From positions 47,375-79,374 of IMG/VR virus record IMGVR_UViG_3300032770_000004: a stretch of 32,000 bases of DNA, one strand, 5' to 3'. This stretch comes from a virus. Shown here piece after piece: positions 152 to 29,505 of this stretch (positions within the stretch are counted from its first letter, which is position 1; every line of letters starts with the position of its first letter). A program made the translations under genes and the position numbers. The notes beneath the pieces were generated by a model. It was not told the origin of the DNA and searched no databases. It worked only from the letters and a program-made list of their open reading frames with translations.

Positions 152-164
152 GATGTGGTAATCT
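137..164 (+). promoter_or_regulatory. sigma70-type promoter ending 6 nt before a tRNA 5' end
   Basis: TTGACA 137-142, 16-nt spacer, TGg-TAATCT 156-164. The tRNA acceptor stem begins at 171. Confidence 0.55.
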
Positions 165-1153: not shown

Positions 1154-1160
1154 GTAATCT
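1154..1160 (+). promoter_or_regulatory. GTAATCT element 8 nt upstream of the HNH-2 ATG
   Basis: Member of the recurrent (G)TAATCT family described in the findings. Confidence 0.4.
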
Positions 1161-1687: not shown

Positions 1688-1812
1688 ACTTCAATGTCGC
1701 CCCCACCGGCCAAGAAAGAAGAGGTCGGTCCGAAGCTCCTTAAGGCGGGGTGTTGTTCTTTAAGCGCTGATCGCAATCTCCATACACTAACCTACCTTTA
1801 CGGGAGACGTGT

Positions 1813-6437: not shown

Positions 6438-6658
6438 AAAAGACCAAGAAGAAGCTCAAGACAGTAATCAGCGCTAACAAGCGCTGGGAAAGCGGTACAG
6501 ATCATCATCCAAAGTCCGTTGCTCTTTTCGAGAAGATCCGCAAGGTCGTCGACTGGAAAGATCGCGGCGACGGTGACAATGGCGAAGAGCTAATGTATCA
6601 GCTTGATGTCATTTTCGAAGCCAAGGAAAACAAAGAGAGCAAGCTAATCTTTGGGTGA
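6434..6658 (+). CDS. hypothetical protein
   Basis: ATGA overlap; ORF track. Confidence 0.65.
   Translation: MKKTKKKLKTVISANKRWESGTDHHPKSVALFEKIRKVVDWKDRGDGDNGEELMYQLDVIFEAKENKESKLIFG
6645..6650 (+). promoter_or_regulatory. TAATCT element 11 nt upstream of ATG 6662
   Basis: Recurrent motif; see findings. Confidence 0.35.
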
Positions 6659-12021: not shown

Positions 12022-12251
12022 GTAATCTACCCTGGTACCAGCGTCCGATTTTCCGAACATTCTCGTTCTGGGCGTGTGTGGTAGGATGTTGGCTGGACGT
12101 TAGCCTGTCCTATATATGCACGAAGATCCCGGAGCTTCATAGATGGGTTGGATACTGGTTGTTCTTTGCGTCTGTTTTTGCTCTGGGTGCGGTTATGCAT
12201 TGGGCCGCAGATCATTATCTTCGAAAGGAACGAGCGAGTACAAAGAAGTGA
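12018..12251 (+). CDS. small membrane protein
   Basis: ORF track; two hydrophobic helices. Confidence 0.6.
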   Translation: MSNLPWYQRPIFRTFSFWACVVGCWLDVSLSYICTKIPELHRWVGYWLFFASVFALGAVMHWAADHYLRKERASTKK

Positions 12252-12711: not shown

Positions 12712-12718
12712 GTAATCT
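12712..12718 (+). promoter_or_regulatory. GTAATCT element 7 nt upstream of ATG 12726
   Basis: Intergenic, with no SD between it and the ATG. Confidence 0.45.
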
Positions 12719-14240: not shown

Positions 14241-17024
14241 ATGTCAGCAACAAAGGACAAGCGAAAGGTCGCTAGTGTCGCCGTTATCCACGGCGGCAGG
14301 TTGCTATGGCTTTTGCGTGATGATTCCAAGAAGCTCTGCCTTCCTGGCGGCAAGTTTGAGGAAGGCGAGGAACCTCTCGACGCTGCTGTCCGTGAACTGA
14401 AAGAAGAGACCGGCATCGACGCTGAGCCCAAAGAGCTAGAGTTCTTGGGCAGCGAGAACGTGCCCGGTACCAAGCTCCACGTCTATTCGTTTAAGTATGA
14501 GCCAGAGAAAGCTCCCGAAATCGACCTTTCCAAGGATCCAGATAAGGAAGCGTGTGGCTATCACTGGTTCGAGGAACTTCCTTCTGAGGAAGAGCAATTC
14601 GTACCACAGGAGAGGAATGTCACGCTGCGTCTCCTTGGAATGGCCGTTCAAGACCTGAACAAGATGGCCATCAAGGACATTCGACCAGGACCAAAAATTG
14701 GATCCGACCGCATCTTTGACTATTCCCATATCCATCCTGGCTTGACAATTCACGAAATTCCCTTTTCGGACAAATGGCATCATCCTCATGTATTGGTAGC
14801 GAACATTCAACATGATCCTGAAAATTACTCGGAACAGTCGAATGTAGAAGGTACCCTCCTTGCGAACGGAATTCATGGTATTCCCGATCTGAATTTTACT
14901 TATTCGGAAGTTCATCCTGAACATCGAGGCCAAGGAATTGGCCGTAAAATGTATGAAGCCCTGATGGCACATGCGCTTCATAATTACGGCACTACCAGGG
15001 TTGTAGGCGGCCTTCACAGCACGCTAGCTCACGAAGCCCACAAGAAGCTATCTCAGAAGCACGGGTTTGAAGGCTATGACCCCAAACCCAATTGGGATCC
15101 AGAGTTTGAAGAGGAGCCTTTTCGCGGTCCATTCAATGATGCTTACGGAAAGTACTCCTATACCATCAAGTCCGAAAGCCTAGCTAAGTCTCAGCCAGAA
15201 TGGCGATCCAAGGATGGTCTGAAGATTCCTAAGAGTGGCACGCCTGCGCGTAAAGATTGGGATAAGGAATACCACAAGCGCCTTGTTGACGTATTCGCTG
15301 GTGGCGACAAAGAGCGTCTTAAGCTCGTGAAGATTCCGGTTACTCCAGCTCTTTCTGGAACCAATTTCGCTGGCAATAAGGATCGCTTGAATCTCTACTC
15401 TCGCATGATTCGTGGCGGCGACAAACTGCCTCCTGCTGTCGTTAAGCGTAATGGCATCGGCTGGCATGTCGTGGATGGCAATCATCGTGCCCAGGCTGCC
15501 TTGAATGCCCAGGTTCCCGAAATGCTCGCGTACGAGTTGATTGATCCTCCGAAGATGAAGAAGGCCGAAGAACCCTTCAAGGGTCTGGCCGAGCATATTG
15601 TTGGCTCGCTGACTGATGATTTACGAAAGCCCAAGTATAAGGGTCACGAGAACCCACTCGCAGGACACTGCTACGTCGCTTCAGAGGCTCTCTGGCACAT
15701 GTTGGGAGGCCCCGATAGTGGCTGGGTACCCCAGACAATTCGGCACGAAAACGACACGCACTGGTACCTGAAGCACAAGGACACCGGCAAGATTCTAGAT
15801 TTGACAGCTGGTCAGTTTAAGACACCAGTTCTCTACGATAAAGGTCGTGGTTGCGGATTCCTGACCAAAGAACCGTCGAAACTAGCCAAGGAATTGATCA
15901 ATCGAATCAACGTTCGACGCGCCCAGAAGAACGATCCAACCCTGAAGAAGGGTGTTCCTGGAGCTATGCTCGCAGCTGGTCTTTTGGCATCGCCTATTCA
16001 CACCGATGTGATGAAGCAGCCAGAACCAAAGGTCCAGCAACAACAAGTAGCTGCCTGGACTCCTGATGGACTAGATTCAGACCTAATTCCAATCGCTCAT
16101 CTGGAATCGAGCTTTGGCAAGAACATCAATCACGCTCCCAACCCAAAGGGCGAGTATTACACCGCTTACGGTGCCGTTGGCATGAAGCCAGTGACAGCCC
16201 ATGAAGAGTACAATAAGAATCAAACCCTTCAGAAGCTCTATCCGAACCTCAAGGATCCTGCTGAATTCATGAAGGCGATGAAGACTATCCCCCGCTTCTA
16301 CAATCTATTGGCATCAACACACTTCGCCCGGATGAAGCACCTCCATGGGTCTGCCGCCAAGGCCGCCTATGCATGGAGGCATGGCCATACTGCCGCTATG
16401 GGCGCATCTCCAGAACAAATTGACAGCGACTTGTATGTCCAAAAGTACCGCCATCTTGCGTCTCAGGCAGGTCTACAGAAAGGTGAGGACTTGATGAAAG
16501 CGATCAGCGACCTAAAGCCCGGTAAGCCAATGGATTTTGGGGTCGATTCTCAGTACTACGATTACAGCCATCTATTGGGATCTCCTGTTCTCAAAAAGAA
16601 GTACAAAATCATCCTCGCTCAAGCTCCCAATAGCTATCGTAATGGCCATCACCTCGAAGCCAAGATTTTCCATAGACCACCAGGAATGAGCAAAGAACAG
16701 GCGGCCGATTGGACTAACTGGCAGAACATTGGTCACCTTAGAAGCAATACAGCCGGACGGTTACTTTACCCATCAGTGGCCAAGTTAGATCCAGCCCATC
16801 AAGGTCGTGGACTAGGCAAGGCCTTGTATCTCGCTACTTTCAAGCACGGCCAGCACTTCTTAAAGACCCACACCATTGCCGGTGAAGTTCACAGCTCCAT
16901 GGCCCATCGTGTCCACGAATCAATCGCCAAGGAACACGGTCTCGCCTACAATGCCCACAAGTACGGACCAGAGATTGGCCCGAATGATGGTGCGTACGGC
17001 GAATACGAATACGCCCTGAAATAA
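14241..17024 (+). CDS. 927-aa polyvalent multidomain protein (NUDIX, GNAT-like, ParB-like, SLT-like, GNAT-like)
   Basis: Perfect NUDIX box GKFEEGEEPLDAAVRELKEETGI. GNAT motif A-like HRGQGIGRKMYEAL and HQGRGLGKALYLAT. ParB/sulfiredoxin-like VVDGNHRA. SLT-like LESSFGKN...AYGAVGMKP. GAGG SD. Confidence 0.85.
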   Translation: MSATKDKRKVASVAVIHGGRLLWLLRDDSKKLCLPGGKFEEGEEPLDAAVRELKEETGIDAEPKELEFLGSENVPGTKLHVYSFKYEPEKAPEIDLSKDPDKEACGYHWFEELPSEEEQFVPQERNVTLRLLGMAVQDLNKMAIKDIRPGPKIGSDRIFDYSHIHPGLTIHEIPFSDKWHHPHVLVANIQHDPENYSEQSNVEGTLLANGIHGIPDLNFTYSEVHPEHRGQGIGRKMYEALMAHALHNYGTTRVVGGLHSTLAHEAHKKLSQKHGFEGYDPKPNWDPEFEEEPFRGPFNDAYGKYSYTIKSESLAKSQPEWRSKDGLKIPKSGTPARKDWDKEYHKRLVDVFAGGDKERLKLVKIPVTPALSGTNFAGNKDRLNLYSRMIRGGDKLPPAVVKRNGIGWHVVDGNHRAQAALNAQVPEMLAYELIDPPKMKKAEEPFKGLAEHIVGSLTDDLRKPKYKGHENPLAGHCYVASEALWHMLGGPDSGWVPQTIRHENDTHWYLKHKDTGKILDLTAGQFKTPVLYDKGRGCGFLTKEPSKLAKELINRINVRRAQKNDPTLKKGVPGAMLAAGLLASPIHTDVMKQPEPKVQQQQVAAWTPDGLDSDLIPIAHLESSFGKNINHAPNPKGEYYTAYGAVGMKPVTAHEEYNKNQTLQKLYPNLKDPAEFMKAMKTIPRFYNLLASTHFARMKHLHGSAAKAAYAWRHGHTAAMGASPEQIDSDLYVQKYRHLASQAGLQKGEDLMKAISDLKPGKPMDFGVDSQYYDYSHLLGSPVLKKKYKIILAQAPNSYRNGHHLEAKIFHRPPGMSKEQAADWTNWQNIGHLRSNTAGRLLYPSVAKLDPAHQGRGLGKALYLATFKHGQHFLKTHTIAGEVHSSMAHRVHESIAKEHGLAYNAHKYGPEIGPNDGAYGEYEYALK

Positions 17025-17027
17025 CCC

Positions 17028-17033
17028 TAATCT
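17028..17033 (+). promoter_or_regulatory. TAATCT element 8 nt upstream of ATG 17042
   Basis: Lies in the 17-nt gap between the two giant genes. Confidence 0.35.
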
Positions 17034-17041
17034 AGTTAGGG

Positions 17042-19168
17042 ATGGAAGACGGAATTGAGCAGTTACTACAGGTAGATGATCCGATTGAGCGCAAGCTTGC
17101 TCTCAAGTCGAAGATTGTCGAGCCTTATCATCTTCGAATGGCACTCATGGATGAAGATCCAGATGTTCGCCTTGCCGCAGCCAAACATCCCAGTCTCACG
17201 CCAGAACTGATTAAGGAAGTCTTGCGTGGTGATGACAAATGGCTAGCAGAGCAGATTCTTCAACGTCCTGATTTGCGCCCAGAAGAGCTTGAGCACGCTT
17301 TAGCCGATCCAGACCTTAGGGGAACCGCAGCCAAGCATCCAGCGCTCTCTGAAGCCCAGCGGAACGCCTTAATCGAGGATCCTGAGACCCCAGACGGAGC
17401 CAGAGAACAGGCAGCCCAGGGCCTCATCAAGAACATTGGCGTGTTGACATATCCGCAGCTCGGTGAAGGCCGAGCCTATTCCATGCCGATGATTATTGAC
17501 CACCGTCCTGATGACAATATTCGTGGAACTACTGTCTACAACGCTAAGCGTACTCAGCCGATGAAGCCGGGCCAGGGTTATCTCTATAGCCACACCTCGG
17601 GCCATAATCCACAGGCCGAGCATGCTGGTGAAAGCCACGAAGCACAGCACATTCTCTTTGCCAAGCTTAAGCAGCGTTTCGGCCGCGAGGCTGGTTATCG
17701 CATCATCGCCAACACGCTTGCCGGTCTTGACCATGAGCATCGCCAGCATGTCTTCAATCTTCTGGACGCACATAAGCCCAAGTCTGCTCAGGATCCAATC
17801 CAGCGACCGGAAGAGGCTATTGCATATCTCCACAACTACCTGATGGATCCAGACCATCGACGCCAAGTTCATGTCAATATGCGTATCAGCCAGAACATTA
17901 ACGCCATGCGCGCGAGCGTGCAGAAGGCACGTAAGGCTTGGCATATGCTACGTGCTAGAGCTGAGGCTCTACGTCCAGAGGAAGTGGGCGTGCAGGTCAA
18001 GAAAGACGAACAGGTCATCGGTGATTGGGTTGAGAAGCTCAAGAAAAGCCAAGACGTTGATGATCCAAAAGTTGCAGACCATGTCGGAATGGACATGAAG
18101 CTGCCTGTTTTGTTACAGGCGGTCAAGTTCCTAACAGGCAAGGAGTTGGATCCAAGCATCGTACGACGCCATCTTATTGAGCAGGACGATGACATGAAGG
18201 AAGCCGTTCTTGCGGCAGCCGGTTTGACATCAAAAGAAGAACGCAAAGCTTTTGATGCCATTATGGATTTAGCTGAGCTGAATAAGTCTGAGGCAAAAGT
18301 AGACGCCAAAGACATTCAGGCACTTCTACCAGAAGATGAGCCTGTCGCTAAAGAAGTCCGCTGGTCATTCCAGCACGGAGAAGTCAAACCCGTAAAGCTC
18401 GGCGGTAAACACAGTAAGGGCACGTTGCTAGCAAAGGATTCAGACGGTCGCCTGCTTCTAATCAAGCCTGGATCCGGCAAGATTTCGCCAATCCGTGGAG
18501 CGCGCGAGGAAAAGGCCAATCAATCCCGTCGCGAGGCTGCATTCTCGTCTGTGGCTCGTTCTTGGGGTTTCAATCGTACTGTCCCTAGGGCTACGCTTCT
18601 AATCATCGATGGCAAGGAAATGGCGGTTATTGACATGTTGCCTTTGGATTGGTCGAATCTTCACAAGACTCGCATGGTGGATCCAACCGTTCCACAGAAG
18701 GCACTACGTGACTATCTAGACAGAGGTATTGTTCACAAATGGGCCGTGCTCGATTATGTACTCGGCAATGGAGATCGCCATGGTATGAACATGATGGTAT
18801 CGCCAGCCGATGAAAATCACAAGATCGCTCTCATTGACCATGGGTCGGCATTTGCTGGTTCTTCATTTGATCCTGGCCAGGACAAGAGCGCCTTTGTGCC
18901 CTACTATCTGCGCGCCTGGGGTCCACAGAAGGGCTTCATGAAGCTTAGCGAGAAGCAAAAGCTCGATACGATGCCCGTTCTTCACGAAACAAAGGATTTC
19001 GAACTACGAGATTGGATCGTCAAGCTCTCTGAAGAGGAGCTTGCTGCCCGTCTTCACCGTTTTGGCATCAACCCAGAACCAAGCGTTGAGCGCCTAAAAG
19101 CACTCAAGAATGCTGTGGCTCAAGCCAAGAGCGCGTCGCGTGTAATCAACGAGTTCTGGATCAAGTAA
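17042..19168 (+). CDS. 708-aa protein: N-terminal LRV/HEAT-like repeats plus C-terminal PI3/PI4-kinase-like catalytic domain
   Basis: Repeats DPDVRLAAAKHPSLTPELI and DPDLRGTAAKHPALSEAQ. Catalytic loop LGNGDRHGMNMMV at 18764-18790, and IDHGSAF at 18833-18853. Confidence 0.8.
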   Translation: MEDGIEQLLQVDDPIERKLALKSKIVEPYHLRMALMDEDPDVRLAAAKHPSLTPELIKEVLRGDDKWLAEQILQRPDLRPEELEHALADPDLRGTAAKHPALSEAQRNALIEDPETPDGAREQAAQGLIKNIGVLTYPQLGEGRAYSMPMIIDHRPDDNIRGTTVYNAKRTQPMKPGQGYLYSHTSGHNPQAEHAGESHEAQHILFAKLKQRFGREAGYRIIANTLAGLDHEHRQHVFNLLDAHKPKSAQDPIQRPEEAIAYLHNYLMDPDHRRQVHVNMRISQNINAMRASVQKARKAWHMLRARAEALRPEEVGVQVKKDEQVIGDWVEKLKKSQDVDDPKVADHVGMDMKLPVLLQAVKFLTGKELDPSIVRRHLIEQDDDMKEAVLAAAGLTSKEERKAFDAIMDLAELNKSEAKVDAKDIQALLPEDEPVAKEVRWSFQHGEVKPVKLGGKHSKGTLLAKDSDGRLLLIKPGSGKISPIRGAREEKANQSRREAAFSSVARSWGFNRTVPRATLLIIDGKEMAVIDMLPLDWSNLHKTRMVDPTVPQKALRDYLDRGIVHKWAVLDYVLGNGDRHGMNMMVSPADENHKIALIDHGSAFAGSSFDPGQDKSAFVPYYLRAWGPQKGFMKLSEKQKLDTMPVLHETKDFELRDWIVKLSEEELAARLHRFGINPEPSVERLKALKNAVAQAKSASRVINEFWIK

Positions 19169-19399
19169 TTATCTCTCGTTGGCGTCGTACCAGAGGGCAC
19201 CACCGACAAATGCGCTAACGACGCCAACTACCACGCCGATCCCGACCGCGAGCACCGCGCCGTCACCACTCCAAGCGACTCCACCGACGAAGCTAACTGC
19301 TCGACAGAACAGCACGAACAGCGGACCCATTGCGAGCCCCAGCGCGATCACGAAGATCGTGCCGATCCACTTCAGGTTCAGATTGATGTTGAGATGCAT
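19169..19399 (-). CDS. small Gly/Val-rich membrane protein (2-3 TM)
   Basis: ORF track. Its stop abuts the + strand stop (TAATTA). About 59% GC by hand count, visibly above the flanking sequence. Confidence 0.6.
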   Translation of the reverse strand: MHLNINLNLKWIGTIFVIALGLAMGPLFVLFCRAVSFVGGVAWSGDGAVLAVGIGVVVGVVSAFVGGALWYDANER

Positions 19400-19402
19400 G
19401 GC

Positions 19403-19759
19403 TTAAATCACCTGGGTAGAGGTCTTCTCGGCCTTCTCGGCGGCCTTGATCGCCCTGTCGAATGCCTTCAGAACCTGCTTCTTGGTGCGTCGCTTGTTAT
19501 CGTTCCAGGTTGGAATGGAGCTGGATTCACCCGCCCGATGGGGAATTACTTTCTCCAGGAAGGAGAAGGCAACGGTACTATGCTGCATGCCAGCCGCACG
19601 GAAGATCGCACCTGTTGCGCAGCATTTGGAAACAGCCCTGCTGTACTCGCTCACTATCCCACCCTTCTTATCAACAGCGTAGTGGCCCTGGCACCACCCC
19701 TTGGTTACGATCTTCTTGGCTTCTTTGAGAACTTCGACTGGTGTTTTGCTTTTCTTCAT
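19403..19759 (-). CDS. hypothetical protein (KGWCQGHYAVD...CCATGA motif)
   Basis: AAGGA SD; ORF track. Confidence 0.65.
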   Translation of the reverse strand: MKKSKTPVEVLKEAKKIVTKGWCQGHYAVDKKGGIVSEYSRAVSKCCATGAIFRAAGMQHSTVAFSFLEKVIPHRAGESSSIPTWNDNKRRTKKQVLKAFDRAIKAAEKAEKTSTQVI

Positions 19760-19831
19760 TTGGTTCCTTGATTGATTCAGTTGTTAGTACCGCAGCAGGC
19801 GCATTTTCTTTCGTACCATGAGAAGACCAAA

Positions 19832-19848
19832 ACCAACCAGTGGTTGGT
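19832..19848. other. 17-bp perfect palindrome ACCAACCA-G-TGGTTGGT
   Basis: Lies between two - strand genes. On the - strand it is followed by TTTGGTCTT, so it could be a terminator or an operator. Confidence 0.5.
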
Positions 19849-19880
19849 CACTCGTCGGCATTTCTTGCAAAAGAGCTGGA

Positions 19881-20084
19881 TCATCGCTCCTCGTTCCGTT
19901 CAATTTGACACAACACGTTGATTGCGGCCATGATCCAGTTGGCGGGAGCCGGACTAACCTGGAAGCTTTCCAGCTCCTCTCGGCACAACTGATTGAAAGT
20001 CTTGGGGTTAATGCCATCAAGTCCATATGCGAGTCGCTGGAGACGGGCATATTCACGACGGGCAGCTTCATAATTCAAGATCAT
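19881..20084 (-). CDS. hypothetical protein
   Basis: ORF track. Preceded by a promoter-like element with its ATG 6 nt after the -10. Confidence 0.55.
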   Translation of the reverse strand: MILNYEAARREYARLQRLAYGLDGINPKTFNQLCREELESFQVSPAPANWIMAAINVLCQIERNEER

Positions 20085-20090
20085 GATACT

Positions 20091-20119
20091 ATCCTATCAT
20101 CTGGAAATGACAACGTCAA
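20091..20119 (-). promoter_or_regulatory. sigma70-type promoter, predicted leaderless
   Basis: On the - strand: TTGACG, 17 nt, TAGGAT, 6 nt, ATG 20084. Confidence 0.45.
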
Positions 20120-20124
20120 GCCCC

Positions 20125-20131
20125 GTAATCT
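20125..20131 (+). promoter_or_regulatory. GTAATCT element 7 nt upstream of ATG 20139
   Basis: Lies in the divergent intergenic region 20085-20138. Confidence 0.45.
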
Positions 20132-20138
20132 TTGGGGT

Positions 20139-20453
20139 ATGACGAATATTCCAGCAGCGCAGATTGAACTCAAAAAGAAGATCGGTACCGCAAAAGGTAA
20201 AGACGTTTGGCACGTCAAAACTAAGGGCGGCTTGCACCTCATTACGGATTCTGGCGGCCGACTGCTTGGATCCGGTCCTCACCGTTCTGTCGCCCGCTTC
20301 CTGGCACAGAAGTTCGAGCCTGATGTAGTGTTCACCGAGCTAAGCAAGAGCGACCACTACGATTACGATGACTTCAAGCACCTCCTGCCCGAATACGAAG
20401 CTCTGACCGAACACATGCGTCAACTTCAGGAAGAAATGAAGAAGCAGGAGTAA
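20139..20453 (+). CDS. hypothetical protein
   Basis: The ORF-track start at 19818 overlaps the antisense genes, so I trimmed to ATG 20139, which follows GTAATCT. Confidence 0.6.
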   Translation: MTNIPAAQIELKKKIGTAKGKDVWHVKTKGGLHLITDSGGRLLGSGPHRSVARFLAQKFEPDVVFTELSKSDHYDYDDFKHLLPEYEALTEHMRQLQEEMKKQE

Positions 20454-20456
20454 CCG

Positions 20457-21404
20457 ATGGCTCGCCAGCCGGTAGAAGATATCCTCACAACGATTCCGCA
20501 GGAGCGGATCAGTTTTGACAACGACGCATTTGATGCGATGCTTCGTAGTCAGGGCGTGAAGCTTGTTCACTATCAGGCCATGCGCTGTCCGGTTGGAATG
20601 ACTGCACTCGATGACAATCGACGTCCACATGAGGACCATGCAGGTTGCACTAATGGTTTCATATACAAGAAAGTTGGTGTCATTACCGCGCTTTTTGTTG
20701 GCAACAGCAAGCACAAGAATCCTTCTGACCTTGGCTATTGGGATGGGAGCACTGTTCAGGTTTCATTTCCTCGCTATTATGATCAGGCTGAGGATTGTCC
20801 AGCTGATGACAAACAGGAAATTTTCGTAGCTCCGTTCGACCGCTTCTACCTACATGAAGAATCGATTGTGGTGCCGACGTGGCAGCTCTTTCTTCATCAT
20901 GAGTCTGGCATCGACCGCCTCAAGTATCCTCCGATTAAGGTTCAAGCTCTCATGGATTCTCAGGGGATCAGCTATACTGAGGGCGCCGATTTTGTCATGT
21001 TTAGCAATCAGCTTAAGTGGATTGGACGTCAACCCTCTGAGCAGATGACCGTAGGCCCAGGATTGACAACGGCTCTGGCGCCAGATGGCACGGACCCTAC
21101 TGACATTGCTGGAATCAACATTCAGAACTCTGGCGATTCTACGCGTGGCTCTGTATGCAGCGTGCGCTATCTTTATCGTCCGTTTTGGTATGTTGGCCAA
21201 ATCATTCATGAGATCCGCGTTACCCAGGAAACTAATGCCTATGGTGACCGCTCTCTTAAGCGTGCTCCCCAGCAGGTCATGTTGCATCGCGAATATGTCC
21301 CGTTGACAAAACAGGCCGATGAGCCTGGAAGTCCTGGAACGACAAGCTCTGACAGCTTCAGGCTCATGCCTGGGCCCGCTGATGGCGGCTTTGGCCCTAA
21401 GTAA
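20457..21404 (+). CDS. hypothetical protein, probable virion protein
   Basis: AGGAG SD; ORF track. Confidence 0.7.
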   Translation: MARQPVEDILTTIPQERISFDNDAFDAMLRSQGVKLVHYQAMRCPVGMTALDDNRRPHEDHAGCTNGFIYKKVGVITALFVGNSKHKNPSDLGYWDGSTVQVSFPRYYDQAEDCPADDKQEIFVAPFDRFYLHEESIVVPTWQLFLHHESGIDRLKYPPIKVQALMDSQGISYTEGADFVMFSNQLKWIGRQPSEQMTVGPGLTTALAPDGTDPTDIAGINIQNSGDSTRGSVCSVRYLYRPFWYVGQIIHEIRVTQETNAYGDRSLKRAPQQVMLHREYVPLTKQADEPGSPGTTSSDSFRLMPGPADGGFGPK

Positions 21405-21407
21405 TCT
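21401..21407 (+). promoter_or_regulatory. GTAATCT element 7 nt upstream of ATG 21415
   Basis: Overlaps the upstream stop codon. Confidence 0.4.
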
Positions 21408-21414
21408 AACCACC

Positions 21415-22155
21415 ATGAACGATGTCTCTTTCCAGTTTCTTGTAGGCGTTCTTGGTAGCGATGGCGCTAAGGTCTTAAAGAAGGCCACCGAACGCGTTTC
21501 CGACCTGGATCGCCTCCTGGTACCCCGCTCGGCATTATCCTGGGTGATGTCTCGTTCTTCGTTTGAAGGTGCTATTCCAGGTATGGACAACAGTTACCTA
21601 AAATTCGCCAAGTCTGAGGCTGGCTTTGATGGGATGGTCATGGTCCGTGACATTCCTATTGACTTTCAAGGAGCCAGTCCGGAATACGTAGCCGCTGCGA
21701 TTGGTGTAGCTGTTGGTATTGAAGGCGTAAGCCCCGAAGTAAATGACAAAACCTTGATGAAGTTCGGCAAGTCCATCGATGTGCTGGTACAGGCGCAGAG
21801 CCTTATCAAGTCCATGGCGAAGATCGAGCTGCCCGGCCAGACTGCTAAGCCTCTACCGCAAGGTGGGCCAATAGCTGCGACCGCACCCCAGAAGCAGCCG
21901 AAGATGAGTAAGCCCAAGCTTCCTAGGCCCTCGAAGGTTCCAGCTCTGAAAGTAGAGAAATCCGAGGCAGAGCATACCTGTGATAAGTGTGGCAAGCAGC
22001 TTTTCAACGACGGCAGATTTAAGCCCTGCATCTGCTTTGCTGACCTATCAAAGTCGATTCGTGTCACAACCTATAAAGATGGATGGGTGCTAGAATTCAA
22101 TGGGTCGGTCGATCATGAATCTGTACGGGCGCTTTCGAAAGTATTCAAGAGGTGA
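21415..22155 (+). CDS. hypothetical protein with C-terminal CDKCG...CICF motif
   Basis: The ORF-track start at 21319 overlaps the upstream gene; ATG 21415 follows GTAATCT. Confidence 0.65.
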   Translation: MNDVSFQFLVGVLGSDGAKVLKKATERVSDLDRLLVPRSALSWVMSRSSFEGAIPGMDNSYLKFAKSEAGFDGMVMVRDIPIDFQGASPEYVAAAIGVAVGIEGVSPEVNDKTLMKFGKSIDVLVQAQSLIKSMAKIELPGQTAKPLPQGGPIAATAPQKQPKMSKPKLPRPSKVPALKVEKSEAEHTCDKCGKQLFNDGRFKPCICFADLSKSIRVTTYKDGWVLEFNGSVDHESVRALSKVFKR

Positions 22156-22158
22156 TAC

Positions 22159-22581
22159 ATGGGTAAGGATCTATACTGGCTTGGACGAAAGATTGTCCAC
22201 CCTTCTCATGCTGATGACCTTGAGCACAATGCGGCTCTATTTGAGTTTGAGCATGGTCTTCCTAGGAAGGAAGCCGAAGCTCGTGCCTACGATGATTATC
22301 GTAAATCGCATCATCGAGATGGGGCGGCGCATCATTTAAGGGGAATGAAGGCCGCTCAGGCTGCTGGTGATATGGGCGAGGCACGCAAGCACGGTATCGC
22401 CTTCGCTATGCACATGGAAGCCCTCGGTCATGACCCCATGGACGAAGTCCCTGAAGAGATTCGATCGCTGGCCGAAGGTGATGACAAAAAGCCGTTCGCG
22501 AAGTTCAAGGCCCACCGTGGAGACTCTTTCTTCCTTGACAAGGAACCGAAAGGGACTACTGTGTGGACACCCTTCGTATGA
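22159..22581 (+). CDS. His-rich hypothetical protein
   Basis: GAGGTG SD; ORF track. Confidence 0.7.
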   Translation: MGKDLYWLGRKIVHPSHADDLEHNAALFEFEHGLPRKEAEARAYDDYRKSHHRDGAAHHLRGMKAAQAAGDMGEARKHGIAFAMHMEALGHDPMDEVPEEIRSLAEGDDKKPFAKFKAHRGDSFFLDKEPKGTTVWTPFV

Positions 22582-22940
22582 GCATTAGGAGAAAACTATG
22601 GAACATTGCAGCGAACATTGCGGCTCAACTCAGACCGTTTGAACCGTTATACCACTATGTCCTGGTGAGAGCAGATATCCCGTTTGGAGTCCAGCTCGCC
22701 CAGTCGATTCACGCCAGCGAAAATGAACCTCCTGGTACGCACGTTGTAGCCCTCCACGCAAATAATGAGCAGGAATTACTGAGCCTTGAGGTTCAGCTAC
22801 AGGCATTGGGCTATACCTATAAGGCAGTACGTGAGCCGGATGCCCCGTGGAATGGTCAGTTGATGGCTATTGGCATCGCCTCCCAGCTTAGAACCCCTCA
22901 GCTTAAGAAGTTGATGTCGAAGTACAAGCTAGCCAAATGA
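22578..22940 (+). CDS. minimal PTH2-like (peptidyl-tRNA hydrolase 2 fold) protein
   Basis: ATGA overlap. YVLVRADIPFGVQLAQSIHAS and VVALHANNEQELLSLEVQLQALGYTYKAVREPDAP...LMAIGI line up by eye with PTH2 blocks (VVRxDLxMxxGKxxAQxxHA; VVLKxxxexeL...DAGxT...TVLGIGP). Confidence 0.5.
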   Translation: MSIRRKLWNIAANIAAQLRPFEPLYHYVLVRADIPFGVQLAQSIHASENEPPGTHVVALHANNEQELLSLEVQLQALGYTYKAVREPDAPWNGQLMAIGIASQLRTPQLKKLMSKYKLAK

Positions 22941-22959
22941 TGGATCCTTTGGGCCTGAT

Positions 22960-22966
22960 GTAATCT
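22960..22966 (+). promoter_or_regulatory. GTAATCT element 24 nt upstream of ATG 22991
   Basis: Intergenic. An AAGGAG SD lies between the element and the ATG. Confidence 0.5.
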
Positions 22967-22990
22967 AGGTGACATTGAAGGAGACCATCG

Positions 22991-23335
22991 ATGGCCACTA
23001 TTTCCTCTGATACAAACACCCGTCTTAGCATCGCCCTCACCAAGTCGGATGCGGGTAACGAAGTCGCTAACGCTCTAAACAACGCTCTTGCGCAGAGCAG
23101 CCAGAATCCCTGGTGCCTCCCCGCCGTAATCGTTGCTACCAATGTCAGCCAGACTATTGACTTTGGTGCTCTCGCTGTTGGAGACCTTGTCGTCCACATC
23201 CCCGCTTCAGCCGGTAACGCTCAGAAGCTGGTGATTTCGACTGCTGGAACTCTTGGAGTCGCTGCTGTTGTTGGCGATCTCTACATTGTTCTTCGTGCGT
23301 TTGTAGCGCCCACTTACCCGACCCAGCAGTTCTAA
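22991..23335 (+). CDS. 114-aa Ala/Val/Thr-rich protein, likely abundant virion component
   Basis: Consensus AAGGAG SD, own promoter-like element, and a strong terminator immediately downstream. Confidence 0.75.
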   Translation: MATISSDTNTRLSIALTKSDAGNEVANALNNALAQSSQNPWCLPAVIVATNVSQTIDFGALAVGDLVVHIPASAGNAQKLVISTAGTLGVAAVVGDLYIVLRAFVAPTYPTQQF

Positions 23336-23360
23336 TCTGCTTCTTGGAGTGGCTAATTTC

Positions 23361-23408
23361 AAACCGCCTTGGCTCAAAAACAATGAGCCGGGCGGTTTTG
23401 TTATTTGC
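23361..23408. terminator. bidirectional rho-independent terminator
   Basis: AAACCGCC-TT-GGCTCA loop AAAACAA TGAGCC-G-GGCGGTTTTGTTATTT, with A-rich 5' and T-rich 3' flanks. It sits between convergent genes. Confidence 0.8.
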
Positions 23409-23919
23409 TGCGTACCGGACACCAGTTTGAATGGCCTGTGGCGAATGGCTGAATGCCGCATGCCGCAGCTCCACATTCACAAACTCCGAAATCGACAGAT
23501 CCCTCCTTTTCCTCTGCTTCATGGAGATCTGCGAACGGATCGAATGTAATAATGTTATGTACCGCTGCTCCGGGTACTCCCCGGCTACTGCCCGAATGTG
23601 TCAGCGTGACATCTGAATAGACCTTGCATTTGCGACAGTTCGTGCAGGTATTCGACGTTATTGAATGCTTCGACCAGGGACAACCACACTCAGCACACAT
23701 GTCGCTCTGCTTTGGAGGACTCATCCAAGGAGGCAAAGTTTGCCAAAGCCCCTTTGCGTAGATCACACCGTTACAAAACTTGTGATGGCCACCTCGATGT
23801 GTGCAGACCATGAGATTGCTGCCACCGGGGATTACGCATAGATTGCTACAAGTACAGTTGTACGTATTTTCGCCGCAATCTGTACAATCACCACTAACCC
23901 AATCATACCATTCCTTCAT
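23401..23919 (-). CDS. Cys-rich protein with C-terminal CxCG...GHSxWC motif
   Basis: The ORF-track start at 23961 is TTG; ATG 23919 lies 6 nt after TGgTATAAT. About 25 Cys residues. The tail CECGAAACGIQPFATGHSNWCP is shared with 27571-28206. Confidence 0.65.
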   Translation of the reverse strand: MKEWYDWVSGDCTDCGENTYNCTCSNLCVIPGGSNLMVCTHRGGHHKFCNGVIYAKGLWQTLPPWMSPPKQSDMCAECGCPWSKHSITSNTCTNCRKCKVYSDVTLTHSGSSRGVPGAAVHNIITFDPFADLHEAEEKEGSVDFGVCECGAAACGIQPFATGHSNWCPVRSK

Positions 23920-23925
23920 AGCACG

Positions 23926-23934
23926 ATTATACCA
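23926..23934 (-). promoter_or_regulatory. extended -10 promoter, predicted leaderless
   Basis: On the - strand: TGgTATAAT, 6 nt, ATG 23919. Confidence 0.45.
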
Positions 23935-24019
23935 TACCCTAGGAGAGATTCGGACTCTCAACCTTCCGGGTCATTACTCCGGCTGCTCTGGCCAATTGGA
24001 GCTACTAGGGCGAACTTCT

Positions 24020-24304
24020 TCAGTTCTTGAGGGTAATAGGATCGACCTCGTCCTCGGACTCGGGCTTGTCGCCTCCGCGCATCCTTTCGAACTCGGTCGG
24101 TTCAGGCATCGTGTTCACGAGTCCTTGCAGTAGGCTCTTGATGTTGTTGTGAACCTGGGGTTCGGCCGGGTGGAATCGATGCTTGTAGCACCACGTGCTA
24201 ATGGCGTCGACCAAATCGGTGGCAAGCTCCTGCATATGCTTACCGGATTCACCCCTGAAATTGCTGGCATCTACTTCTTGTACTACGTCTTTGGGATTGC
24301 TCAT
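24020..24304 (-). CDS. hypothetical protein
   Basis: ATGA overlap with the RNA ligase gene stop. Confidence 0.65.
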   Translation of the reverse strand: MSNPKDVVQEVDASNFRGESGKHMQELATDLVDAISTWCYKHRFHPAEPQVHNNIKSLLQGLVNTMPEPTEFERMRGGDKPESEDEVDPITLKN

Positions 24305-25332
24305 TTTTGTTCTCTCTTGAGTTGATTTGCTACCATTACCTCACGCATCCAATGAGCGTGGGTGGTCACGTGACCCTTACGAACGTATTTTCCCACGGAC
24401 TCTTTGAATTGTCTATAGGGAAACGACGACGCACTTCTAACTACATACCCTTCACATGGATCTCCTTGGTATTCCGGAATGTACAGGTTTTCGATTTTGG
24501 AGCGATCTCCGGGTCCGCGATAGAGCGTGGGAACCATTTGCAGCCCCAGCAACGCACACCATTCTACGGTCTCATCCCACGACAGAATTTCGTTCTTCTC
24601 GTTCCAGATGGAGAAGACCTGGAACCAGTCATCGAGATTGAGATAGTGGATACTGTGTTTGGCATAAAGGTTTTCGCCACAGATACGCCAGCCTTCGGGA
24701 ATCTCGTAAGAGATTCGACCGTGCAGAGATTTAACCCAGTTGCGGCTGGGGTGAGGCTCGTGAGTCAGCGAGCGGGCATGGATGAAGTCCTTGTACATGG
24801 TGGTATTCTCGCCATCCATCTTGATGGTAGCGATCACTTCTCGGCCCTTGAATGGATCGGGATTTGTCATCATTCGATCGTCTTTGGTGAGCCCAGGACT
24901 CCAAGGTAGATGATATGTACGAGGATACTTGACGTGCGTGGTAAAGAGAGTGAGAGCACCACCGTCTCCGAGAATCTTTTGAACGGACTGATCAAAGAAG
25001 AGATCACCACGCAATCTGGTGCCATTGGGAAGAACAGGATTCCCCCATTTGTCATAGATCTGATCGTTGTAGAGGTGCGGAGGCAGGATCGCCTTTCGAA
25101 TTCCAGCGGCCTCTCTGATCTGCTCAACCGAGAGCTTGGTCTGTTCAGCTTCCATATGATGAAGGCCGCACAAACTAGCACCGTTGTCCAGATAATAGCC
25201 CTCATCGGGCCATAGGCGGCGCTCGATAATGTGGTGAGCATCAACCGCTGGCGCCTTGCAAATGACGCACTGATGATTGTCGCGCTCGAAGACCCCTTCT
25301 CGGAATTGATCGCGAGTTTTAAGGTCGCTCAT
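24301..25332 (-). CDS. HNH domain fused to an RNA ligase (Rnl2/PF09414-like nucleotidyltransferase)
   Basis: N-terminal HQCVICKAPAVDAHHIIERRLWP...NGASLCGLHH. Ligase motif I is IKMDGEN; later motifs are ICGENLY, EGYVVR and GKYVRKGH. Confidence 0.8.
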   Translation of the reverse strand: MSDLKTRDQFREGVFERDNHQCVICKAPAVDAHHIIERRLWPDEGYYLDNGASLCGLHHMEAEQTKLSVEQIREAAGIRKAILPPHLYNDQIYDKWGNPVLPNGTRLRGDLFFDQSVQKILGDGGALTLFTTHVKYPRTYHLPWSPGLTKDDRMMTNPDPFKGREVIATIKMDGENTTMYKDFIHARSLTHEPHPSRNWVKSLHGRISYEIPEGWRICGENLYAKHSIHYLNLDDWFQVFSIWNEKNEILSWDETVEWCALLGLQMVPTLYRGPGDRSKIENLYIPEYQGDPCEGYVVRSASSFPYRQFKESVGKYVRKGHVTTHAHWMREVMVANQLKREQK

Positions 25333-25550
25333 GGCTCCTTAGTGATTGGCAGACGCAACAAATCGAGAGCAGCTTGGAGTTGGTTGGCTCGTTGAGTCTC
25401 TGCCAAATGACGTAGAACAGCCTTCATAAGCTGATCATTCGTCTTGAACAAGACTGCCCTAAGGGCCTGAATCTCTTTCAGGGCGGCAGGCAAATTGGTA
25501 GGTAGCGGAGGACCATCCTGGCGGTTTCTCTCGAATGGGTCAGACATCAT
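25329..25550 (-). CDS. hypothetical protein
   Basis: ATGA overlaps at both ends. Confidence 0.65.
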   Translation of the reverse strand: MMSDPFERNRQDGPPLPTNLPAALKEIQALRAVLFKTNDQLMKAVLRHLAETQRANQLQAALDLLRLPITKEP

Positions 25551-26380
25551 CTACCTCCGTGTCCAAAGGAAGTGGGTCTCCACATTCCTAAGTAGTTTCC
25601 TACTTCTAGTACGACCCGATGCAGTTTGTCAAGGTCTGCTCTCTTGTCGTTGATTATCTTACAGCTGAACCACCAATCAGGAATAGAGTCTTGGTCCTGT
25701 TCACTTACGTGAGCGCTGAAGCTCGCTGCCCGTTCTTCTGGATTGACAACAAGAATGGGAGCACCACCGAGCGCCTTAACCGAAAGAATCTCATTACGGA
25801 AACGCCCATCGCTGATAATCGCAACGGCTGGGCGTTCTGGGCCAGGAATGTGACCCTTGATTTTGTCGTATGTGCCACCTTCAGATAGAATCTTTACGGC
25901 TAGGTCTCGCGCGTGATCAGCCCAGATGGTGGGCTTGATCGATCGGCCAAACTCAGTACCGAGAGTTTGGAGAATGTATCTTGGGGTGGTCTCACGGGCC
26001 AGACTATCGTGGTCGGCTACCATACCGAGCCAGTCATTAAGCTTGCCATAAACATAGCCGCGTTGACTATGGCCAAATTTAAATCCCAGTTCATTTAGCC
26101 AGTTGCTGACGGTCATTCCCTTAGAAAGAATGTGAAAGTTACGATGCAAGTCATGCCAATCGTAACCGAAGAGTTTAGGATCAAGAGAGACCGGCTTGTT
26201 TCGCATCTCGCTGGGTCCCCAGAGCTGTTCTTCTGTAAAGCCGAAGAGCTGCATCGCGAAGCGCTTAAGAGGATCAGCTTGAGCGATGACAACACCGTTG
26301 AATTCTTTCTGGAGAATTGAAGCTACTGTATCCTTTCCTGATCCTGCCTTTCCTGCTAAAATTACAAGTGGATATTGCAT
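25547..26380 (-). CDS. P-loop kinase, T5-type dNMP kinase-like
   Basis: Walker A GKAGSGKDT, LQTLGTEFGR, ISDGRFRNE, HVSEQ. GGAG lies 7 nt upstream of ATG 26380. The ORF-track start at 26530 overlaps the upstream gene. Confidence 0.7.
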   Translation of the reverse strand: MQYPLVILAGKAGSGKDTVASILQKEFNGVVIAQADPLKRFAMQLFGFTEEQLWGPSEMRNKPVSLDPKLFGYDWHDLHRNFHILSKGMTVSNWLNELGFKFGHSQRGYVYGKLNDWLGMVADHDSLARETTPRYILQTLGTEFGRSIKPTIWADHARDLAVKILSEGGTYDKIKGHIPGPERPAVAIISDGRFRNEILSVKALGGAPILVVNPEERAASFSAHVSEQDQDSIPDWWFSCKIINDKRADLDKLHRVVLEVGNYLGMWRPTSFGHGGR

Positions 26381-26418
26381 CGACTGTTCTCCAAAGCTTT
26401 CAATTGTTGGGATCACTC

Positions 26419-26616: not shown

Positions 26617-26617
26617 C

Positions 26618-27539: not shown

Positions 27540-27545
27540 GATTCC

Positions 27546-29498: not shown

Positions 29499-29505
29499 GT
29501 AATCT
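29499..29505 (+). promoter_or_regulatory. GTAATCT element 10 nt upstream of ATG 29516
   Basis: Lies in the divergent intergenic region 29451-29515, with no SD. Confidence 0.45.

What the first reader, a model, noticed from the sequence alone, without database searches (positions are those of the whole stretch)
20125..22966. (G)TAATCT: a -10-only element sitting 6-11 nt upstream of gene starts, mainly before late-looking genes
By manual scan I find 11 TAATCT hexamers on the + strand. Nine lie just upstream of a start:
- 159: 6 nt to the tRNA at 171.
- 1155: 8 nt to ATG 1169.
- 6645: 11 nt to ATG 6662.
- 12713: 7 nt to ATG 12726.
- 17028: 8 nt to ATG 17042.
- 20126: 7 nt to ATG 20139.
- 21402: 7 nt to ATG 21415.
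- 29500: 10 nt to ATG 29516.
- 22961: 24 nt to ATG 22991, with an AAGGAG SD in between.
Seven of these nine are preceded by G. Only the copy at 159 has a -35 element. The remaining two are at 12023 (inside an ORF) and 23333 (over a stop codon). Five reverse-strand copies (AGATTA at 5068, 5940, 9502, 11064 and 13581) all fall inside + strand genes and all read TTAATCT. Raw hexamer frequency is unremarkable; the positional bias is the signal. A -10-only promoter before structural genes recalls the T4 late TATAAATA promoters read by a phage sigma-like factor. An alternative is a non-SD translation-initiation element, but the copy in front of a tRNA argues for transcription.
Basis: partly seen in the sequence, partly recalled or inferred. 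Interest (0 to 1): 0.7.

Follow-up and report, generated by a model that had tools for sequence, protein, structure and literature searches.

The report
Late-gene promoter of Mx1-like phages
The short DNA word (C/T)AATCT in front of many genes is most likely the late-gene promoter of a large, mostly uncultured group of phages related to Myxococcus phage Mx1. It is probably read by a sigma factor the phage itself encodes, and it often sits so that the mRNA starts exactly at the ATG.

Summary
All 16 TAATCT coordinates are correct. The total count is ordinary (16 against 13.8 expected), but TAATCT ranks first of 4096 hexamers for lying 6-11 nt upstream of an ATG that opens a long ORF (7 of 16, p=2e-8).

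The window is part of a ~170 kb phage distantly related to Myxococcus phage Mx1. The motif generalises to (G/C)-Y-AATCT-(T/A):
- **Conservation:** 135 of 144 non-identical upstream regions of five orthologous genes carry it, across about 100 relatives.
- **Gene class in Mx1:** it is the top hexamer upstream of the plus-strand genes, which include every annotated structural gene but one. It is at chance level before the 164 minus-strand genes, which instead carry TTGACN-N17-TAnnnT promoters.
- **Upstream:** there is no -35 element.
- **Spacing:** the mode is exactly 7 nt to the ATG without a Shine-Dalgarno (SD) sequence. Otherwise it is 15-35 nt with one.
- **Sigma factor:** the family encodes a sigma-70-like protein that ends after region 4.1, so it lacks the -35-reading helix.

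Best reading: a single-element late promoter read by host RNA polymerase carrying the phage sigma, often giving leaderless mRNAs. It is analogous to phiEco32 gp36 and T4 gp55 promoters.

Not shown: any transcription start site, or the sigma gene in this window's own genome.

Verdict: a new member of a known kind, of moderate interest.

The parts
159..164 (+). TAATCT serving as the -10 of a full sigma-70-type promoter (TTGACA 137-142, 16-nt spacer, TG two bases upstream), 6 nt before tRNA-Met (171-245), the first of a five-tRNA cluster
   Evidence: This is the only copy with a -35. It could be read by the host sigma early and by the phage sigma late; that is inference.
1155..1160 (+). GTAATCT, 8 nt before ATG 1169 (HNH homing-endonuclease-like gene, 172 aa), directly after tRNA-Asn; no SD sequence
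   Evidence: Mx1 has the same arrangement: TAATCT-N7-ATG before HNH genes at 47037 and 48185.
6645..6650 (+). CTAATCT, 11 nt before ATG 6662 (163 aa); it lies inside the 3' end of the upstream gene 6434-6658; no SD sequence
   Evidence: Not checked in relatives because no locus covers it.
12713..12718 (+). GTAATCT, 7 nt before ATG 12726 (136 aa, N-terminus MLLS); the next gene (13136-13981) matches a PHROG annotated as tail fiber protein
   Evidence: In 10 of 12 non-identical upstream regions of this gene family, AATCT lies within 60 nt of the start (sequences). The Mx1 orthologue at 23137 has CAATCT, the same MLLS N-terminus and the same length, which fixes 12726 as the start.
17028..17033 (+). 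CTAATCT, 8 nt before ATG 17042 (PI3/PI4-kinase-like, 708 aa); it lies in the loop of a weak hairpin CCCTAA...TTAGGG
   Evidence: The motif is kept before the kinase gene in L001, L002, L003 and Mx1 (CAATCT at 28835).
20126..20131 (+). GTAATCT, 7 nt before ATG 20139 (104 aa), the first gene of a rightward unit. It stands back to back with a leftward sigma-70-type promoter (TTGACG 20119-20114, TAGGAT 20096-20091) that serves the minus-strand gene starting at 20084
   Evidence: In 24 of 26 non-identical upstream regions of this gene family, AATCT lies within 60 nt of the start. A strong local hairpin spans 20114-20144 (-17.1 kcal/mol, z -3.9).
21402..21407 (+). GTAATCT, 7 nt before ATG 21415 (246 aa); its TAA is the stop codon of the virion structural protein gene 20457-21404
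   Evidence: In 22 of 27 non-identical upstream regions of this gene family, AATCT lies within 60 nt of the start.
22961..22966 (+). GTAATCT, 24 nt before ATG 22991 (114 aa), with an AAGGAG SD sequence in between: the leadered form of the same promoter
   Evidence: All 7 non-identical upstream regions of this gene family carry AATCT, all with an SD sequence.
29500..29505 (+). GTAATCT, 10 nt before ATG 29516 (endonuclease VII-like homing endonuclease, 87 aa), followed by the mCpol-domain gene 29776-31476. It stands back to back with a leftward TTGACA-N17-TATAAA promoter (29485-29457) serving the minus-strand gene at 29450
   Evidence: In L004 the same motif directly precedes the mCpol gene, with no endonuclease in between.
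12023..12028 (+). Possible further copy (GTAATCT) in a probably non-coding stretch, 114 nt upstream of ATG 12143
   Evidence: No gene is called at 11931-12142 on L009. Function is not supported further.
1774..1779 (+). Possible CAATCT-form copy, 33 nt before ATG 1813 with an SD-like GGGAG in between
   Evidence: Judged by eye only; not tested in relatives.
23333..23338 (+). TAATCT over the stop codon of gene 22991-23335, with no plus-strand gene downstream. A terminator-like hairpin follows at 23368-23392. Probably not a working promoter

Best explanation
(G/C)-Y-AATCT-(T/A) is the core promoter of the late, mainly structural genes of a family of ~150-180 kb phages related to Myxococcus phage Mx1. 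This window belongs to that family.

The motif has no -35 partner. The proposed reader is host core RNA polymerase carrying a phage-encoded sigma-70-family factor that has regions 2, 3 and 4.1 but lacks region 4.2, the helix that reads the -35.

Transcription is predicted to start at the 8th base after the motif. Where the motif lies exactly 7 nt from the ATG, the mRNA would be leaderless, and such genes have no SD sequence. Where the motif lies 15-35 nt upstream, an ordinary SD-containing leader is made.

Shown: the motif, its conservation, its strand and gene-class specificity, the spacing classes, and the domain make-up of the sigma.
Inferred: that it is a promoter, the start site, late timing, and which sigma reads it.
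For: **Window.**
- TAATCT is the top hexamer 6-11 nt upstream of ORF-opening ATGs (p=2e-8).
- The genes behind it lack an SD sequence, while most other genes in the window have GGAG-type SD sequences.
- 3 of 4 new copies in the adjacent 9.5 kb of the same genome also precede gene starts.

**Mx1 whole genome.**
- CAATCT and AATCTT are the most frequent hexamers upstream of the 86 plus-strand genes and are 13-15-fold over expectation.
- 20 of 81 plus-strand YAATCT copies lie within 60 nt upstream of a plus-strand start (about 2.5 expected). They include portal, tail sheath, tailspike and two baseplate genes.
- Only 3 of 49 do so for the 164 minus-strand genes, which is the chance level.
- Minus-strand genes instead have TTGACN-N15-18-TAnnnT. 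37 minus-strand genes have one within 80 nt upstream (the strand holds 39 such sites; 2.9 expected), against 0 plus-strand genes.

**Footprint across relatives.** 135 of 144 non-identical upstream regions of five ortholog families carry AATCT within 60 nt of the start. The base before is C or T in 132 of 135. The base after is T in 102 and A in 29.

**Needed where a promoter must exist.** The motif sits in divergent intergenic regions where rightward transcription has to begin, back to back with a leftward TTGAC -35.

**No upstream element.** Nothing beyond position -1 carries much information.

**Spacing.** There is a sharp mode at exactly 7 nt (21 cases), with SD-like matches in only 9 of 43 sites at 12 nt or less. 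The rest spread over 15-35 nt, with an SD sequence in 77 of 92. Canonical early-type promoters in the same window sit 6-7 nt from their ATGs, which is the same geometry.

**Co-variation.** One lineage (L103) has CAATCA at three orthologous sites.

**Sigma.**
- The Mx1 335-aa protein is annotated as a putative sigma.
- The family has more than 500 members.
- Its profile matches SigA chains at E=3e-8 from region 1.2 to 4.1, and then the protein ends.
- The AlphaFold model (pLDDT 80) hits only sigma-A/sigma-70 chains in its top 46 Foldseek matches.
- The sigma gene sits on the same contig as the structural gene in 7 of 11 IMG/VR contigs of at least 120 kb. An eighth link rests only on a matching contig length.
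- No phage RNA polymerase gene is annotated in Mx1.

**Precedent.** phiEco32 gp36 lacks region 4 homology and reads a single element tAATGTAtA, with starts 6-8 bp downstream (PMC8948821).
Against: - No transcript 5' ends, expression timing or in vitro transcription data exist for any member.
- The sigma gene is not in the window. It could not be shown for the window's own genome: no hit with the 169,962-bp contig length appeared.
- Purine enrichment begins at the 8th base after the motif but continues downstream, so it does not pinpoint a start site.
- Some plus-strand units in Mx1 that follow minus-strand genes have no AATCT within 60 nt (13002, 55093, 147212). Other promoter classes must therefore exist.
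- Several motif-led genes in the window are not structural (tRNAs, homing endonucleases, the kinase).
- The enrichment is much weaker in the sigma-flanking loci of very distant relatives, about 3-fold.
Confidence: 0.75

Rival explanations
1. The motif is a -10-only promoter read by the host primary sigma holoenzyme, not by the phage sigma. A phage factor that disables -35 recognition may help, as described for Thermus phage P23-45 (my own knowledge).
For: - TAATCT fits TAnnnT.
- At 159 it serves as the -10 of a complete TTGACA-N16 promoter.
- Canonical promoters in the same window have the same 6-7 nt distance to the ATG.
Against: - The commonest family form is CAATCT, which lacks the T at -12.
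- The five-base core is almost invariant, unlike the degenerate host-type -10 hexamers seen before minus-strand genes in the same genomes (TAGAGT, TAGTAT, TACAGT).
- There is no consistent TG extension.
- The family has a conserved sigma lacking region 4.2, which otherwise has no assigned promoter.
Confidence: 0.12
2. The motif is the binding site of a phage late activator or another DNA-binding protein, and is not itself the element that fixes the start site.
For: Its strand- and class-specific position upstream of late genes would also fit an activator site.
Against: - The sharp mode at exactly 7 nt from the ATG in genes without an SD sequence implies that the motif sets the start point.
- No separate -10-like element lies between the motif and the ATG in those cases; there is no room for one.
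- No second conserved element is present.
Confidence: 0.07
3. The motif acts at the RNA level, either as a processing site that cuts polycistronic transcripts just upstream of genes or as a non-SD translation-initiation signal.
For: - It is close to start codons that lack an SD sequence.
- A few copies sit in hairpin loops.
Against: - Its distance to the ATG varies from 7 to 55 nt, and an SD sequence is present whenever there is room.
- It occurs before a tRNA.
- It occurs in divergent intergenic regions where no upstream rightward transcript is expected.
- There is no general hairpin signature (mean z -0.23 over 42 sites).
Confidence: 0.05

Closest known systems
phiEco32 gp36-dependent middle/late promoters (single element tAATGTAtA)
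   Same: - Both are a single, highly conserved -10-region element with no -35.
- In phiEco32 the start sites are 6-8 bp downstream.
- The phage sigma-70-family factor lacks region 4 homology.
- Early genes use host-type promoters and are transcribed in the opposite direction (PMC8948821).
   Different: - The motif sequence differs (YAATCT against tAATGTAtA).
- The phage type differs (a ~170 kb contractile-tailed phage against a 77 kb podophage).
- The sigma here is longer (about 340 aa) and keeps regions 1.2, 3 and 4.1.
- Many promoters here are placed for leaderless mRNAs.
- Nothing has been tested experimentally here.
T4 late promoters (TATAAATA) read by gp55 with gp33 and the gp45 clamp
   Same: Both are -10-only late promoters in front of structural genes of a large myovirus, read by host core polymerase with a phage sigma-like protein (my own knowledge).
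   Different: - The motif is different.
- The sigma here is a recognisable sigma-70-family protein with regions 2-4.1. It is not the minimal region-2-only gp55, and Pfam gave only Sigma70_r2.
- No gp33 or clamp dependence is known here.
- T4 late mRNAs are not typically leaderless.
Thermus phage phiYS40 middle/late promoters and -10-adjacent ORFs in Deinococcus-Thermus
   Same: A -10-like element immediately upstream of the start codon gives leaderless mRNAs without an SD sequence (Sevostyanova et al. 2007, from my own knowledge; general pattern from the abstract of PMC12340547).
   Different: - The host phylum is different.
- phiYS40 is not known to me to use its own sigma.
- Here only about a third of sites have the short, leaderless-type spacing (43 of 135 at 12 nt or less), and orthologous genes switch between leaderless and SD-leadered forms.
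Phage 7-11 gp47 and Bacillus phage SPO1 gp28/gp34 promoters
   Same: Phage-encoded sigma factors redirect host core polymerase to phage-specific promoters upstream of late genes (7-11: PMC8948821; SPO1: my own knowledge).
   Different: Those promoters are bipartite (7-11: GTAAtg-N16-aCTA). The promoter here has one element only.

Membership tests
Single-element (-10-only) promoter dependent on a phage sigma (phiEco32 gp36 / T4 gp55 kind) | One conserved element in the -10 region and no conserved -35 | tested here: met
   The information profile of 42 sites shows the core YAATCT(T/A), with at most 0.36 bit at any position upstream of the motif.
Single-element (-10-only) promoter dependent on a phage sigma (phiEco32 gp36 / T4 gp55 kind) | Found upstream of late/structural genes and not early genes | tested here: met
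   In Mx1, 20 of 81 plus-strand copies lie within 60 nt upstream of plus-strand starts, against 3 of 49 before minus-strand genes. Minus-strand genes carry TTGACN-N17-TAnnnT instead. Timing itself was not measured.
Single-element (-10-only) promoter dependent on a phage sigma (phiEco32 gp36 / T4 gp55 kind) | The phage encodes a sigma-like factor without a working -35-reading region 4.2 | tested here: inconclusive
   Met for Mx1 and more than 500 relatives: the profile aligns to SigA regions 1.2-4.1 and the protein then ends, and the fold matches sigma-A. It co-occurs with the structural gene on most near-complete contigs. The gene was not found in the window and could not be traced for the window's own genome.
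Single-element (-10-only) promoter dependent on a phage sigma (phiEco32 gp36 / T4 gp55 kind) | Primary 5' ends 6-9 nt downstream of the motif, and transcription that depends on the phage-sigma holoenzyme | not testable with these tools
   This needs RNA 5'-end mapping and in vitro transcription. The only indirect support is the mode of exactly 7 nt between the motif and the ATG.
T4 gp55 family (as a protein family) | Sequence homology of the sigma to gp55 | tested here: not met
   Pfam gives only a weak Sigma70_r2 match. The PDB profile search and Foldseek return sigma-A/sigma-70 chains and no gp55.
Canonical sigma-70 -10 hexamer (TAnnnT) | T at -12, A at -11 and T at -7 | tested here: inconclusive
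   TAATCT fits. The commoner CAATCT does not fit at -12. In the register AATCT(T/A), A falls at -11 and T or A at -7, which also restores the 6-nt gap to the ATG seen at canonical promoters in the window.
Leaderless-mRNA gene arrangement | Promoter -10 element about 6-8 nt from the start codon and no SD sequence | tested here: met
   Seven window genes have spacers of 7-11 nt and no SD sequence. Family-wide, 21 sites sit at exactly 7 nt, and SD-like matches occur in 9 of 43 short spacers against 77 of 92 long ones. Translation of such mRNAs in the host was not tested.
Non-SD translation-initiation element | Fixed distance to the start codon, and found only before protein genes | tested here: not met
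   The distance ranges from 7 to 55 nt, with an SD sequence in between when it is long. One copy precedes a tRNA.

The most novel reading that the evidence does not exclude
The promoter may double as a translational gate. Genes with the 7-nt arrangement have no SD sequence, and at some sites (window 20126; the kinase gene in Mx1) the motif sits in the loop of a hairpin that ends at or spans the ATG.

Such genes would be translated only from the leaderless transcript that starts at their own late promoter. They would stay silent on read-through transcripts from upstream genes. This would tie protein output strictly to phage-sigma activity.

A related possibility is that the region-4.2-less sigma needs a still unknown co-activator, as gp55 needs gp33 and the clamp.
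Probability: 0.2. Interest if true: 0.7.

Novelty: new member of a known kind. Interest (0 to 1): 0.5.

Why it matters
Mx1-like phages are a large group, mostly from metagenomes. Hundreds of relatives of their sigma and structural proteins turned up, many on contigs of 150-180 kb. I found no published analysis of their transcription: only a genome announcement for Mx1 (PMC10720576) and no paper linking these hexamers to a late promoter.

What the motif offers:
- A simple, testable key to their gene-expression programme.
- A split of genes into early-type (TTGACN-N17-TAnnnT) and late-type (YAATCT).
- Corrected start codons: 12726, 20139 and 21415 here, and 47050 plus an unannotated HNH gene at 48198 in Mx1.
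- A predicted specificity for a new sigma subfamily that lacks region 4.2.

Mx1 grows on the genetically tractable M. xanthus, so the prediction can be tested directly.

Orthologous genes switch between leaderless and SD-leadered forms. This is a natural data set for studying how leaderless translation evolves.

Tried and rejected
- **Near-identity DNA search against phages:** no match.
- **Exact 41-mer in IMG/VR:** no match.
- **Single-protein locus search in IMG/VR:** no relatives. It worked only with an alignment.
- **Tracing the window's own 169,962-bp contig and its sigma:** failed. The look-up returned only near-identical shorter contigs. No sigma hit with that contig length appeared in two protein searches or the metagenome scan. 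The HNH protein at 1169 is not on record.
- **A general hairpin around the motif (N4-like hairpin promoter, or an RNA structure):** rejected. Mean z was -0.23 over 42 sites. Only window 20126 and Mx1 28835 are individually significant.
- **The generic sigma-70 consensus scan of window 17000-32000:** not enriched overall, 12 against 11.2. It was informative only when restricted to TTGACN and read against gene starts.
- **The purine at the 8th base as a start-site marker:** not specific, because purine richness continues downstream.
- **A second motif, CGCTATAGGTA, seen in L090/L091:** absent from the window.
- **The phiYS40 paper:** could not be opened.


Full report
**1. The observation**

The overall count is unremarkable: 16 against 13.8 +/- 4.0 in dinucleotide shuffles. 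The stated distances to the next start codon or tRNA are also correct.

I tested the positional bias without assuming a gene model. For each of the 4096 hexamers, I counted copies lying 6-11 nt upstream of an ATG that opens at least 80 codons. TAATCT ranks first, with 7 of 16 copies (7 of 11 on the plus strand) against a background rate of 2.1%. The binomial p is 2e-8, or about 8e-5 after correction for 4096 hexamers.

Most other genes in the window have GGAG-type SD sequences. The seven genes 7-11 nt behind TAATCT have none.

There are small corrections. One of the five reverse-strand copies reads CTAATCT, not TTAATCT. The copy at 12023 probably lies in a non-coding gap.

**2. What the window is**

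The window has 50% G+C and carries tRNA genes. It encodes the following:
- a NUDIX-GNAT protein
- a PI3/PI4-kinase-like protein
- a virion structural protein
- two homing-endonuclease-like genes
- an mCpol-domain protein

The only cultured relative is Myxococcus phage Mx1 (OR576727.2, 169,621 bp). Its kinase is 41% identical and its structural protein 35% identical, in the same gene order. A protein 100% identical to the window's structural protein is recorded on a contig of 169,962 bp. Hundreds of metagenomic relatives exist, many on contigs of 150-180 kb.

Gene calls on close relatives show three minus-strand genes between the kinase gene and 20139. So 20139 opens a rightward unit in a divergent intergenic region.

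**3. Conservation**

In relatives L001-L004, whose structural protein is 57-80% identical to the window's, TAATCT is kept at the orthologous positions. These are the sites before the kinase gene, the 104-aa gene (20139), the 246-aa gene (21415), the 114-aa gene (22991) and the mCpol gene.

I extended this to loci fetched through alignments of the sigma and the structural protein. Of 144 non-identical upstream regions from five ortholog families, 135 contain AATCT within 60 nt of the start. About 5% would be expected for a pentamer. The gene between terminase and portal has it in 72 of 72.

The base before the core is C (82) or T (50). The base after is T (102) or A (29). The flanks are otherwise unconserved, and no -35-like element exists.

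One lineage (L103) shows CAATCA at three orthologous sites. This looks like a lineage-wide change of specificity.

**4. Whole-genome test in Mx1**

Using the record's own annotation, CAATCT and AATCTT are the most frequent hexamers in the 50 nt upstream of the 86 plus-strand genes. Each occurs before 15 genes, 13-15 times more than expected.

Twenty of 81 plus-strand YAATCT copies lie within 60 nt upstream of a plus-strand start, where 2.5 are expected. The genes include portal, tail sheath, tailspike, two baseplate genes and the kinase. For the 164 minus-strand genes the figure is 3 of 49, which is chance.

The minus-strand genes are small genes of unknown function and replication genes. They carry TTGACN-N15-18-TAnnnT instead. 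37 of them have one within 80 nt upstream (the strand holds 39 such sites; 2.9 expected), and no plus-strand gene does. This is the classical split between host-type early promoters and a phage-specific late promoter.

**5. Out-of-sample test in the same genome**

L196 is 100% identical to window 29776-32000 and continues 9.5 kb beyond the window. Three of the four new plus-strand TAATCT copies lie 7, 23 and 38 nt upstream of called gene starts. The fourth is internal to a gene, as is the only minus-strand copy.

**6. Geometry**

The distance from the motif to the start codon has a sharp mode at exactly 7 nt (21 cases) and a broad class at 15-35 nt. SD-like matches occur in 9 of 43 short spacers and in 77 of 92 long ones.

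The same orthologous gene is leaderless-type in some genomes and SD-leadered in others. This rules out a translation-initiation element, and so does the copy in front of a tRNA.

Canonical TTGACA-type promoters in the window also sit 6-7 nt from their ATGs: 3794 to 3801, 29457 to 29450, 29063 to 29055 and 20091 to 20084. Leaderless expression therefore seems general in this phage. The motif has the same geometry if its register is read as AATCT(T/A), spanning -12 to -7.

In divergent regions the motif stands back to back with a TTGAC on the other strand at variable distance. That TTGAC is the -35 of the leftward promoter.

**7. The likely reader**

Mx1 encodes a 335-aa "putative RNA polymerase sigma factor" and has no annotated phage RNA polymerase gene. 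The evidence on this protein is:
- Pfam sees only a weak region-2 match.
- PHROGs places it in a sigma family.
- The family has more than 500 members.
- A profile of 24 members matches Thermus SigA chains at E=3e-8 from region 1.2 to region 4.1, and the proteins end there.
- The AlphaFold model (pLDDT 80) has only two helices after the linker, and its top 46 Foldseek matches are all sigma-A/sigma-70 chains.

A sigma without region 4.2 fits a promoter without a -35. The same argument was made for phiEco32 gp36 (PMC8948821).

The sigma sits on the same contig as the structural gene in 7 of 11 IMG/VR contigs of at least 120 kb. An eighth link rests only on a matching contig length of 169,280 bp.

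The sigma gene is not in the window, and I could not trace it for the window's own genome.

**8. Rivals**

- **Host sigma alone.** This is disfavoured by the CAATCT form, by the near-invariance of the core compared with the degenerate host-type -10 hexamers, and by the existence of the orphan sigma.
- **An activator site.** This is disfavoured by the exact 7-nt spacing, which leaves no room for another core element.
- **An RNA processing or translation signal.** This is disfavoured by the variable spacing, by the occurrence in divergent regions and before a tRNA, and by the lack of a general hairpin (mean z -0.23).

**9. Comparison and novelty**

The closest known system is the phiEco32 gp36 promoter. 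It has a single element tAATGTAtA, starts 6-8 bp downstream, and its sigma lacks region 4. T4 gp55 with TATAAATA and the leaderless late genes of Thermus phage phiYS40 (both from my own knowledge) are functional analogues.

The sigma here is not gp55-like by sequence. I found no published promoter analysis for Mx1 or its relatives.

My verdict is a new member of a known kind. The computational support is strong, and there is no experimental support.

**10. Limits**

- No 5' ends, timing data or biochemistry exist.
- Some Mx1 plus-strand units lack the motif.
- Enrichment is weaker in very distant relatives.
- Several motif-led genes in the window are not structural.

Noticed in passing
window 20108-20150; L005 (Mx1) 28818-28860: At these two sites the motif sits in the loop of a strong hairpin whose 3' arm ends at or includes the start codon: -17.1 kcal/mol with z -3.9, and -15.4 with z -3.3. 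Weaker inverted repeats of different sequence flank the motif before the kinase gene in the window (17025-17041), L001 and L002. This is not a general property of the motif.
   Followed up: partly
window 3766-3794 (+), 20119-20091 (-), 29091-29063 (-), 29485-29457 (-): Canonical TTGACA-N17-TAnnn(T/A) promoters end 6-7 nt from the ATGs at 3801, 20084, 29055 and 29450. Early-type genes of this phage therefore also look leaderless. In Mx1, by contrast, early genes have SD-containing leaders. This hints at a host that translates leaderless mRNA well.
   Followed up: partly
L005-L008 (Mx1), upstream of minus-strand genes: The spacers of the Mx1 early-type promoters very often contain GGATCT, AGATCC or TAGATC. 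These are the top hexamers upstream of the 164 minus-strand genes (19-24 genes each, 7-16-fold over expectation). This could be a regulator or methylation site inside the promoter spacer.
   Followed up: no
L103 3022, 8081, 9236 (upstream regions): This lineage has CAATCA instead of CAATCT at three orthologous promoter positions. That suggests a lineage-wide change in promoter specificity, which could be paired with changes in its sigma.
   Followed up: no
L090 8588, 14069, 14949; L091 7933, 11031: A second promoter-like motif, (T)CGCTATA(G/A)GTA, lies 7-20 nt upstream of ATGs in one lineage, including in front of the operon that holds the sigma gene. It may be a middle-class promoter. It is absent from the window.
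   Followed up: partly
window 1169-1687 and 29516-29779; L009 2892-3539; Mx1 47050 and 48198: Homing-endonuclease-like genes (HNH, endonuclease VII) each carry their own TAATCT 7-10 nt upstream.
- The endonuclease VII gene at 29516 is inserted between the promoter and the mCpol gene, whereas L004 has none there.
- The near-identical contig L009 has an extra endonuclease gene that is absent from the window.
- Mx1 has an unannotated 142-aa HNH-like ORF at 48198.
- The Mx1 HNH gene at 47068 probably starts at 47050.
   Followed up: partly
window 14241-19168 and 29776-31476: There is unusual cargo inside or next to the structural block: a 927-aa NUDIX-GNAT protein, a 708-aa PI3/PI4-kinase-like protein, and a 566-aa protein with a minimal CRISPR polymerase (mCpol) domain. 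All three are conserved across the family (Mx1, L001-L004).
   Followed up: no
window 4367-4452 (+) and 23935-24011 (-): ARAGORN calls an 86-nt second tRNA-Asn(gtt) and a lone minus-strand tRNA-Ile(aat). Both are unusual in length or anticodon and were not checked.
   Followed up: no
window 23333-23392: A TAATCT overlaps the stop codon of the last rightward gene. It is followed by a terminator-like hairpin with a T-rich tail (23368-23392), at the point where gene orientation switches to the minus strand.
   Followed up: no
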